DNA of 61,401 nt, the filler included, from Dugesia japonica (Eukaryota): NCBI GenBank assembly GCA_001938525.1. It is 5 parts of 5 records of this genome, joined end to end, with 100 filler letters (N's around TTAATTAATTAA, not from the genome) between each part and the next. Parts side by side here need not be neighbours in the genome. Positions count along the whole stretch, not along the records: positions 24,361 to 35,715 come from MQRL01627549.1; 4 more parts are not named here. One strand, written 5' to 3'. Shown here in pieces: positions 27,170 to 28,540 of this stretch. Within the stretch, counting starts at the first letter, position 1. Each line of letters opens with the position of its first letter. The notes under the pieces are model-generated. The model did not search any database. It was given only the letters and a program-made list of their open reading frames with translations, and was not told the DNA's origin. The translations under genes were made by a program, and so were the position numbers.

Positions 27170-27640
27170 ATGGCTAACAAAACCTGTAAAAGTAACAAAA
27201 CCTATAAAAGTAATAAATTTATATGTGATTATTGTGGTAAAATATTATTAAAAAAGAATAAATCAAGACATTTAGATTTATGTATTAATATAAAAGGCGG
27301 TGACCTTCAAAATTCAAGTTTTATATCTAGTTTATTAAAACCAATTACAACTGAAAAATATCCAGGTGAACGTCATTTATTTAAACATAATTACACTGGA
27401 CCTGGAACTAGATTAGATATTAGATTAGATTCTGATAATATTCCAAATCCTGGTGAAGAACCAATTAATCAAGTTGATGCAGCTGCATTAAAACACGATA
27501 TTGCTTATTATTGAGAAGATCCTCGTGATCGTCATATTGCAGATGTCAATTTAATACATGATTTAAATAATATCCAAAACCTAACAACTTCAGAAAAATT
27601 TCAAAGAGCTCTTGTAAAATTAGCTATNAAAGGTAAAATA
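27170..27640 (+). CDS. zinc finger + parvovirus VP1u-type phospholipase A2 domain, with an in-frame TGA at 27512-27514
   Basis: CDYC-x12-H-x3-C finger; YTGPG Ca-binding loop; DAAALKHDIAY catalytic HD; RHIAD after the TGA in the same frame. Confidence 0.88.
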
Positions 27641-28540
27641 ATGATTGGACAAGGTCAAAAGATTGGACAAGGAAGAAAAAAAGATCCATTTAAAAAAACT
27701 ACAATTATTAAAGATGAATCTGATTCCGAATCTGAGCAAAACAATAAACAACTTTTAGCTGATGAACTTCACAAAGATTTTAAAAAACCAAAACATTTTA
27801 GAAAAGTCATTGTTCATGATAAAGATAACATTTGGTCAGCTGATTTAATATTTCAAGGAACAGAACGTAAAAATAAACATGTAATATTAACAGTTATAGA
27901 TCTTTTCACAAGATTTGCATTCGTAGAATTAACCACAGGAAAATCTGGACCCAAAATAACACAAGCATTTAAAAATATATTAACTAAAAATAATAGAACT
28001 CCATTGAAATTATGGGTTGATCAAAGTAAAGAATTTTATAATCAAAATTTTGAATCACTCTGTAAAACTAAAAATATTCTTTTGTATTCTACACAAAATC
28101 AAGGTAAAGCCGTTGTTATCGAAAGATTCAACCGTAGTTTTAAAAACAGGCTTTTTAAATATTTTACTGCCGTTGGAAATCAAGATATCACTCAAGAAAT
28201 CTTAGATGAAATTGTAAATGATTATAATAATACTATACATTCAAGTATAAATATTACACCTCAGGAAGCGACGCTTAATCCAGAAAAAATTGAAATTAAA
28301 CCCATAGAACCTTTCACTGAAACCCTAAAATTTAAAATTGGCCAACGCGTAAGAATAACTAAGCTTTTAAAAACATTTCCTAAAGGTTACACATTTAAAT
28401 GGTCAAAGAAAATTTATATAATTACAAAGATTCATCGAAATATTAATGATAGACCATTTACATTTGAAATCTCAAATCTTAACGGAAATAAGATACTTGG
28501 TAGATTTTACAGTAATGAACTTCAAAAAACTAGTTTTTAG
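27641..28540 (+). CDS. rve (retroviral-like DDE) integrase, Maverick type
   Basis: LADELHK, WSADL (D), WVDQSKEF (D), IERFNRS (E), YNNTIHSSI, FKIGQRVRI, FYSNELQK; no chromodomain. Confidence 0.95.
   Translation: MIGQGQKIGQGRKKDPFKKTTIIKDESDSESEQNNKQLLADELHKDFKKPKHFRKVIVHDKDNIWSADLIFQGTERKNKHVILTVIDLFTRFAFVELTTGKSGPKITQAFKNILTKNNRTPLKLWVDQSKEFYNQNFESLCKTKNILLYSTQNQGKAVVIERFNRSFKNRLFKYFTAVGNQDITQEILDEIVNDYNNTIHSSINITPQEATLNPEKIEIKPIEPFTETLKFKIGQRVRITKLLKTFPKGYTFKWSKKIYIITKIHRNINDRPFTFEISNLNGNKILGRFYSNELQKTSF

What the first reader, a model, noticed from the sequence alone, without database searches (positions are those of the whole stretch)
27170..28540. Zinc finger-PLA2-integrase in one reading frame with adenain-type cleavage sites at both junctions
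Seen: the 114-aa ORF and the 299-aa integrase ORF are in the same frame (27641-27170 = 157 codons). The only interruption is one TGA at 27512, between the PLA2 catalytic HD and the downstream RHIAD. No stop follows the PLA2 tail (KGKIMIGQG). IKGG|D separates finger from PLA2, and MIGQ|G (followed by a second IGQG) separates PLA2 from an acidic linker and the integrase. Established: adenovirus protease cuts (M/I/L)xGG|x and (M/I/L)xGx|G, parvoviral VP1u PLA2 mediates endosome escape, and this element encodes an adenain. Inference: the ancestral gene is a ~456-aa virion polyprotein that co-packages a nucleic-acid-binding finger, an entry lipase and the integrase, released at maturation, like retroviral Gag-Pol in a dsDNA virus. 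I cannot tell without a search whether this fusion is already described.
Basis: partly seen in the sequence, partly recalled or inferred. Interest (0 to 1): 0.85.

Follow-up and report, generated by a model that had tools for sequence, protein, structure and literature searches.

The report
Polinton lipase-integrase polyprotein, Gag-Pol-like
An integrated Polinton-type DNA virus in this likely animal genome holds a broken copy of a gene that, in intact relatives, joins a likely zinc finger, a phospholipase and the integrase in one protein that is likely cut apart by the viral protease inside the virion; other relatives are predicted to make the same join by ribosomal frameshifting, as retroviruses do for Gag-Pol.

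Summary
Observation confirmed: finger, parvovirus-type PLA2 and rve integrase lie in one frame of a Polinton/adintovirus-like element, with one stop (27512-27514) inside PLA2. The stop is copy-specific: about 95% of sister-copy contig depth differs in that codon. Intact fusions exist: 10 of 27 hits, 30 of the best 150 cluster representatives. Gly motifs flank PLA2: GG/GxG in 39 of 44 after it and 15 of 20 before it, against 0.4% background; the strict adenovirus P4 rule holds in only 6 of 44 and 5 of 20, so the rule is mavirus-like GG|x / Gx|G. Cleavage and packaging are inferred. The in-frame fusion is already labelled, undiscussed, in a preprint supplement (PMC11071296). New here: five related loci overlap PLA2 with an ATG-less integrase in the -1 frame, with A_AAA_AAC plus a hairpin (z -4.5 to -5.8), and others fuse the integrase to the protease. 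Polintons thus repeatedly tether integrase to virion proteins. New variant of a known kind.

The parts
27170..28540 (+). Finger-PLA2-rve integrase gene, one frame, broken by one stop in this copy (456 codons)
   Evidence: intact relatives
27224..27283 (+). Putative zinc finger, C-x2-C-x11-H-x3-C here; relatives have C-x2-C...H-x5-H with weak zf-U1 hits below the Pfam cut-off
   Evidence: (E 5e-4 to 0.04 in 4 relatives); no finger hit for the window's own protein
27290..27304 (+). Junction 1, IKGG|D, predicted protease site
   Evidence: GG/GxG in 15 of 20 rows with upstream sequence; lies in a pLDDT<50 linker in the model of intact relative P0002
27302..27652 (+). Parvovirus-type PLA2 domain: Ca-loop YTGPG (27392-27406), catalytic HD (27494-27499), downstream RHIAD, last helix K-x-K
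   Evidence: PF08398 E 4.6e-9; motifs conserved
27512..27514 (+). In-frame TGA inside PLA2: the break in this copy
   Evidence: most sister-copy contig depth differs in this codon in two runs; no stop here in relatives
27641..27673 (+). Junction 2, MIGQ|G followed by a duplicated KIGQ|G, predicted protease site
   Evidence: GG/GxG in 39 of 44 rows; 17 of 110 stand-alone PLA2s end exactly at this P1 position
27755..28540 (+). rve (DDE) integrase starting at LADELH; WSAD, WVDQ and VIER motifs present; no chromodomain
   Evidence: model of P0002 matches foamy-virus integrase structures, E 1.5e-15
25846..27168 (+). [quoted passage not shown]
   Evidence: PF21738 E 2.3e-14
28814..29584 (+). A32/FtsK-type packaging ATPase (3' part in an N run)
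   Evidence: PF04665 E 1.8e-4, below cut-off; Walker A seen
33819..34292 (-). Adenain/Ulp1-type cysteine protease with GTHW, FDSFG, Q and CG motifs intact
   Evidence: PF00770 E 0.006; alignment A7 hits ASFV S273R E 7.6e-8 and adenain E 4.4e-7
34530..35105 (-). Penton-like minor capsid ORF
   Evidence: no Pfam hit; likeness by eye to ORFs of related loci; inference
35108..35713 (-). Conserved Polinton ORF with a KGKG|L motif before its C-terminal domain; cut by the contig end
   Evidence: same domain preceded by GxG in L001, L002, L005, L017; no Pfam hit

Best explanation
The locus is a stop-broken copy of a Polinton/adintovirus gene whose intact relatives encode finger, PLA2 and integrase as one protein, which is likely packaged in the virion and likely cut by the element's own adenain-type protease at GG|x and Gx|G, so that the PLA2 would breach a membrane at entry and the integrase would arrive with the genome. 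Shown: one frame, intact relatives, conserved Gly motifs, a protease of the right family with intact catalytic motifs. Inferred: cleavage, packaging, the finger's role as DNA or capsid tether, the membrane acted on. The same tethering is predicted to be reached in other Polinton clades by a -1 ribosomal frameshift from PLA2 into integrase and by in-frame fusion of integrase to the protease.
For: Intact fusions: 10 of 27 hits; 11 of 80 metagenome loci in one ORF, 2 more with one stop inside PLA2; 30 of the best 150 representatives hit both profiles. Stop private to this copy. Gly motifs 39/44 and 15/20 against 0.4% of 6892 background windows. Predicted cut ends match natural ends: 17 of 110 stand-alone PLA2s stop at the junction-2 P1 residue, and 14 of 44 fused rows start with Met within 4 residues of junction 1 (a few may be truncated gene calls). 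Both junctions lie in low-confidence linkers of the P0002 model. Mavirus protease cuts GG|X and GY|G, and mavirus virions hold the rve integrase and a lipase-like protein cut at GK|G (PMC6048507). -1 signal in 5 loci. Protease-integrase fusions with Gly junctions.
Against: No cleavage, virion or activity data; no Polinton virion has been observed (10.64898/2026.06.19.733378). Strict adenovirus consensus met in only 6/44 and 5/20; 5 of 44 lack the junction-2 motif and 5 of 20 the junction-1 motif. The motifs also flank stand-alone PLA2s, so they could be inherited domain ends. A Met lies between the PLA2 HD and the first integrase Asp in 33 of 35 rows, so internal initiation is not excluded. 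Rows are related, so counts are not independent. Many Polinton integrases stand alone (62 of 80 loci had no PLA2 hit in the fetched DNA), so tethering is not required.
Confidence: 0.66

Rival explanations
1. The fusion works uncut: PLA2 and finger stay attached to the integrase as accessory domains, and the Gly motifs are flexible domain ends inherited from stand-alone PLA2.
For: Motifs occur in stand-alone PLA2s too; P4 is not conserved; some linkers are only 5-8 residues long.
Against: The same Gly pattern marks protease-integrase junctions and other Polinton ORFs but not the window's capsid, penton-like or five other ORFs; it matches the experimentally mapped mavirus specificity; natural termini coincide with predicted cuts.
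Confidence: 0.17
2. One long ORF yields separate proteins without proteolysis: the integrase starts at an internal Met (here ATN 27626 or ATG 27641) by leaky scanning or a second transcript, and the full-length fusion is minor.
For: A Met lies between PLA2 HD and the integrase Asp in 33 of 35 rows; the window's integrase has its own ATG at 27641.
Against: 18 of 35 rows have no Met after the last PLA2 helix; no stop separates the domains, so PLA2 can only be made as the fusion; the five -1 loci have no ATG before the first catalytic Asp.
Confidence: 0.1
3. The TGA is a programmed signal (readthrough or reinitiation) that sets the PLA2:integrase ratio in this lineage.
For: Retroelements use readthrough at gag-pol junctions (recalled).
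Against: The stop lies inside the PLA2 fold, before its last two helices; most sister-copy depth differs in this codon; L009 and L011 carry stops at other places in PLA2, as decay predicts.
Confidence: 0.02
4. The overlapping PLA2 and integrase frames of L017, L020, L083-L085 are decayed in-frame fusions or assembly errors rather than programmed frameshifts.
For: In-frame relatives of the L017 clade exist (P0164, P0124, P0070); A-runs invite indels.
Against: All five share the -1 phase, the same A_AAA_AAC heptamer and a hairpin 5-8 nt downstream (0 of 200 shuffles); two unrelated hairpins in two integrase clades; one two-sided and two one-sided stem changes keep pairing; K-N follows the GxG in 31 of 47 close relatives against 4.5% background.
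Confidence: 0.12

Closest known systems
Adintovirus PLA2X (Starrett et al. 2021, PMC8502044)
   Same: Parvovirus-type PLA2 in an element with DJR capsid, A32/FtsK ATPase, adenain and rve integrase; proposed entry role.
   Different: PLA2X is described as a separate gene with a C-terminal protein-X-like domain (section 3.2; seen in L018). Here PLA2 runs into the integrase, has an N-terminal finger and no pX tail, and the integrase has no chromodomain.
'PLA2-Integrase' entries Adinto15303 and Adinto6405 (Buck et al. 2024 preprint, PMC11071296, supplementary file 2)
   Same: Same in-frame fusion; Adinto6405 resembles the window's clade by eye.
   Different: Only a FASTA label; the main-text passages read do not discuss it, give no cleavage sites and mention -1 frameshifts only for Penton and Hexon-Adenain. 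The shown starts of both entries lack a finger.
Mavirus virion maturation (Born et al. 2018, PMC6048507)
   Same: Clan CE protease cuts GG|X and Gx|G; virions contain the rve integrase and a processed lipase-like protein.
   Different: Mavirus integrase and MV13 (alpha/beta hydrolase, not PLA2) are separate genes.
Retroviral and LTR-retrotransposon Gag-Pol (recalled, textbook)
   Same: Integrase made as part of a virion polyprotein, in frame or by -1 frameshift at a slippery heptamer plus stem-loop, released by the viral protease.
   Different: dsDNA virus; the carrier is a lipase or the protease, not the capsid protein; cysteine rather than aspartic protease; cleavage here untested.
Parvovirus VP1u PLA2 (PF08398)
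   Same: YxGxG Ca-loop and HDxxY catalytic motif.
   Different: In parvoviruses it is the N-terminal extension of the capsid protein (recalled); here it is joined to an integrase.

Membership tests
Polinton/Maverick/adintovirus (Polintoviricetes) | DJR major capsid protein | tested here: met
   PF21738 E 2.3e-14
Polinton/Maverick/adintovirus (Polintoviricetes) | rve integrase | tested here: met
   PF00665 E 5.2e-8; best viral fold hit of P0002 is a MELD-virus integrase
Polinton/Maverick/adintovirus (Polintoviricetes) | Packaging ATPase and adenain/Ulp1 protease | tested here: met
   (Pfam scores below cut-off; profile hits to adenain and S273R structures)
Polinton/Maverick/adintovirus (Polintoviricetes) | Protein-primed PolB | tested here: inconclusive
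   none among the ORFs of contig 24361-35715, which is bounded by scaffold gaps; PolB-like ORFs seen by eye in L017, L019, L020, L083
Polinton/Maverick/adintovirus (Polintoviricetes) | Terminal inverted repeats and target-site duplication | tested here: inconclusive
   no TIR pair among the 25 longest of 235 inverted repeats shown; ends lie in gaps
Adintovirus as defined in PMC11071296 | Integrase with C-terminal chromodomain | tested here: not met
   no Chromo hit in the window's protein or its close clade; present in L013 and P0170 fusions
PLA2X gene class | C-terminal protein-X-like domain | tested here: not met
   PLA2 runs into linker and integrase
Parvovirus-type PLA2 (PF08398) | Ca-loop and HDxxY motifs, profile match | tested here: met
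   this copy is truncated by the stop
Adenovirus protease substrate | (M/I/L)xGG|x or (M/I/L)xGx|G (PMC4246237) | tested here: inconclusive
   met at both sites in the window; met in only 5 of 20 and 6 of 44 rows family-wide
Protease-processed virion polyprotein (Gag-Pol-like) | Cleavage by the viral protease and presence in virions | not testable with these tools
   inferred
Programmed -1 ribosomal frameshift (relatives L017, L020, L083-L085) | In-phase X_XXY_YYZ heptamer, 5-9 nt spacer, stable stem, -1 ORF without own start | tested here: met
   frameshifting itself not measured; the window's own junction has no such stem (z 0.09)

The most novel reading that the evidence does not exclude
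Polintons have repeatedly evolved a Gag-Pol strategy: the integrase is loaded into the virion as a protease-cleavable passenger of the entry lipase or of the protease itself, either in frame (this clade) or through a programmed -1 ribosomal frameshift with slippery site and stem-loop. Many annotated Polinton integrases that start after their first catalytic Asp would be unrecognised frameshift products.
Probability: 0.58. Interest if true: 0.8.

Novelty: new variant of a known kind. Interest (0 to 1): 0.64.

Why it matters
No Polinton virion has been seen, and how these elements reach and integrate into a new genome is open. A cleavable lipase-integrase protein gives sequence-level evidence that the integrase travels in the particle and names exact, cheap tests (junction peptides with the protease; a frameshift reporter). 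A retrovirus-style -1 frameshift feeding an rve integrase in a dsDNA virus would be a clear convergence with Gag-Pol and would correct truncated integrase annotations. The window's own copy is a decayed member; the value lies in the family.

Tried and rejected
Viral-contig scans with A1 and with the L017 integrase found nothing; the A4 scan gave two near-identical loci with a stand-alone PLA2 and no integrase nearby. No RNA holder listed; of two RNA runs laid, one gave 0 reads and one 39 partly fitting reads, none 99% alike: no test of a fused transcript. Single-sequence PDB search with the protease found nothing relevant; the alignment did. Fold searches with the whole P0002 model returned only integrase-type matches in the rows shown, so PLA2 and finger folds were not confirmed structurally. 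No complex prediction was obtained. The careful tree did not finish; the quick tree is used and 10 of 82 rows were dropped for lack of the core motif. Programmed readthrough of the TGA was considered and rejected. Host species not determined. Three look-ups of earlier scan findings were empty.

Full report
Setting. The finding lies in an 11.4-kb contig (24361-35715) between two scaffold gaps in AT-rich DNA (16-40% GC per kb) with transposon relics and a spliced kinase exon; an animal host is my inference. The contig encodes a DJR capsid protein (E 2.3e-14), an A32-like ATPase and an adenain-like protease. The protease keeps GTHW, FDSFG, Q and CG motifs, and a profile of it with six relatives hits ASFV S273R (E 7.6e-8) and adenain (E 4.4e-7) structures. 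No PolB or terminal repeats were seen; the ends fall in gaps.

Observation. Read with X at the break, 27170-28540 is one frame of 456 residues with a single stop at 27512-27514 and one N at 27628. PLA2 (residues 69-137, E 4.6e-9) and rve (219-306, E 5.2e-8) both match. The stop is a defect of this copy: in two contig sets from separate studies of the same organism, 1041.6 of 1079.6 and 922.6 of 983.6 summed depth show another letter in that codon (contigs show presence, not copy number). More than 10,000 contigs per run were laid on the stretch, so the family is large and diverse in this host. L009 and L011 carry single stops at other places in PLA2.

The fusion is real. A search with the PLA2 part gave 27 hits among 75 candidates: 10 carry PF08398 and PF00665 in one protein (best P0002, 80% identical over the query), one is a fragment of such a protein, and 16 are Lottia gigantea gene models, two of which run from PLA2 into the integrase's first motif. 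Among the best 150 representatives at 50% identity, 30 hit both profiles; one has the reverse order and three look like spliced models. These sets were selected with the fusion as query, so they do not give a family-wide frequency.

Junctions. In 44 fused rows (51 dereplicated at 70%, window included), GG or GxG follows the last PLA2 helix in 39; before PLA2 it is present in 15 of the 20 rows with upstream sequence; 14 rows start with Met within four residues of that site and 10 are cut. Background in the integrase part is 0.4% of 6892 windows. The strict adenovirus pattern (M/I/L)xGG|x or (M/I/L)xGx|G (PMC4246237, one passage) is met at both sites in the window but in only 6 of 44 and 5 of 20 rows. 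This fits the mavirus protease, mapped to GG|X and GY|G; mavirus virions contain the rve integrase and a hydrolase cut around GK|G (PMC6048507, passages). In 120 relatives of the L017 PLA2, the motif precedes the domain in 94 of 103 and follows it in 92 of 110, and 17 of 110 end exactly at the predicted P1 residue. An AlphaFold2 model of intact P0002 (mean pLDDT 86.7, pTM 0.62) places junction 1 in a segment under 50 and junction 2 in a block averaging 60 between two helices; the integrase part matches foamy-virus intasome structures. The finger has only weak zf-U1 hits in four relatives; other clades carry a different Zn ribbon (DUF5679) or none. Nucleic-acid binding is inference.

The wider pattern. 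In L017, L020, L083, L084 and L085 (L083 and L084 near-identical) the PLA2 ORF overlaps the integrase ORF by 37-106 nt in the -1 frame, the integrase frame has no ATG before its first catalytic Asp, and an in-phase A_AAA_AAC follows the GxG codons with a hairpin 5-8 nt downstream (-13.7 to -21.7 kcal/mol, z -4.5 to -5.8, 0 of 200 shuffles). Of 79 in-phase slippery heptamers in the long ORFs of these loci, 4 passed a stem filter, all at the junction; the L083 and L084 junction sites failed the spacer rule because the fold added two pairs at the start. Between L083/L084 and L085 the stem shows one two-sided and two one-sided changes that keep pairing. K-N, the peptide of AAA AAC, lies within nine residues of the motif in 31 of 47 close relatives against 4.5% background. 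The window's own junction has no such stem. Separately, P0163, P0189 (70 members), P0215 (49 members), L034, L070 and L077 fuse the protease in frame to the integrase through Gly motifs. On a quick integrase tree (72 of 82 rows), the window sits in a clade of nine in-frame fusions (SH-aLRT 99); well-supported branches force at least 5 changes for in-frame fusion, 2 for the frameshift form and 2 for protease fusion. This means repeated gain or loss; the tree is unrooted and does not say which state is ancestral.

Mechanism. Most likely the fusion is a virion precursor: made as one chain, packaged (finger perhaps as tether), cut at both Gly sites by the co-packaged protease, releasing a PLA2 for membrane passage and an integrase that travels with the genome. 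Frame, conservation and protease family are shown; cleavage, packaging and the site of lipase action are inferred. Against it: no experiment, motifs shared with stand-alone PLA2s, and an internal Met available in 33 of 35 rows (none after the last PLA2 helix in 18 of 35).

What is in print. PLA2 in Polintons is known: PMC3671162 (passages), PMC5803895 (passages), PMC8502044 (passages, section 3.2 and the text of Fig. S2; its slide files could not be read). The in-frame fusion is labelled 'PLA2-Integrase' for two sequences in supplementary file 2 of PMC11071296, which also labels PLA2X-Adenain and Adintoc3-PLA2X fusions (the file is held cut, so more may exist). Its main text (passages and section 16) mentions -1 frameshifts only for Penton and Hexon-Adenain. 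Term look-ups in 10.1101/2023.08.22.554363, PMC11161782, PMC8097293, PMC11131425, 10.64898/2026.10.13.758929 and 10.64898/2026.06.19.733378 (passages) showed no such fusion or frameshift. Searches turned up no paper discussing a cleavable PLA2-integrase protein or a PLA2-to-integrase frameshift; most listed papers were seen as listings only, and subscription journals, Repbase and bioRxiv supplements are not covered. Gag-Pol biology and the VP1u context are recalled.

Verdict. The fusion itself is recorded but unexplained; the cleavage logic, the frameshift form and the recurrence of integrase tethering appear undescribed in what I could search. New variant of a known kind; interest 0.64.

Noticed in passing
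L017:3035-3069, L020:1964-1992, L083:5405-5452, L084:5408-5455, L085:2091-2138: Slippery heptamer A_AAA_AAC plus hairpin joining PLA2 to an ATG-less integrase in the -1 frame.
   Followed up: yes
L034:2740-4248, L070:2467-3273, L077:2759-3925; P0163, P0189, P0215: Adenain-type protease fused in frame to the integrase through Gly motifs; P0215 adds an N-terminal C2H2 finger.
   Followed up: partly
P0259: Reverse order: integrase-chromodomain followed by GxG and PLA2 in one predicted protein.
   Followed up: no
window 42900-44251 (-): Fragment of a second, different Polinton-like element: an ORF ending in a QKGG|F hydrophobic protein-X-like tail, then a frameshifted integrase of the long N-terminal type.
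   Followed up: no
PMC11071296 supplementary file 2, Adinto13074 and AdiHACZ01167797: Annotated integrases start at a Met that by likeness lies after the first catalytic Asp; they may be unrecognised fusion or frameshift products.
   Followed up: no
L083, L084 (MAG contigs titled as bacteria), L085 (titled as archaeon): Polinton-like DNA sits in prokaryote genome bins, likely mis-binned eukaryotic virus contigs.
   Followed up: no
P0009-P0011, P0013-P0022, P0024-P0026 (Lottia gigantea): Gene models that leave the frame at the Gly after PLA2, likely false splicing of viral fusion genes.
   Followed up: partly
window 24510-24590: Five tandem copies of a 15-nt unit upstream of the first viral ORF.
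   Followed up: no
window 37894-41450 (-); 7229-7919, 22995-23240, 48328-49055: Decayed LTR-retrotransposon (rve E 4.3e-9) and Tc1/mariner-like relics seen by eye.
   Followed up: no
L081:4788-5381: Stand-alone PLA2 flanked by LVGG| and FGGG motifs in a viral contig without an integrase in the fetched DNA.
   Followed up: no
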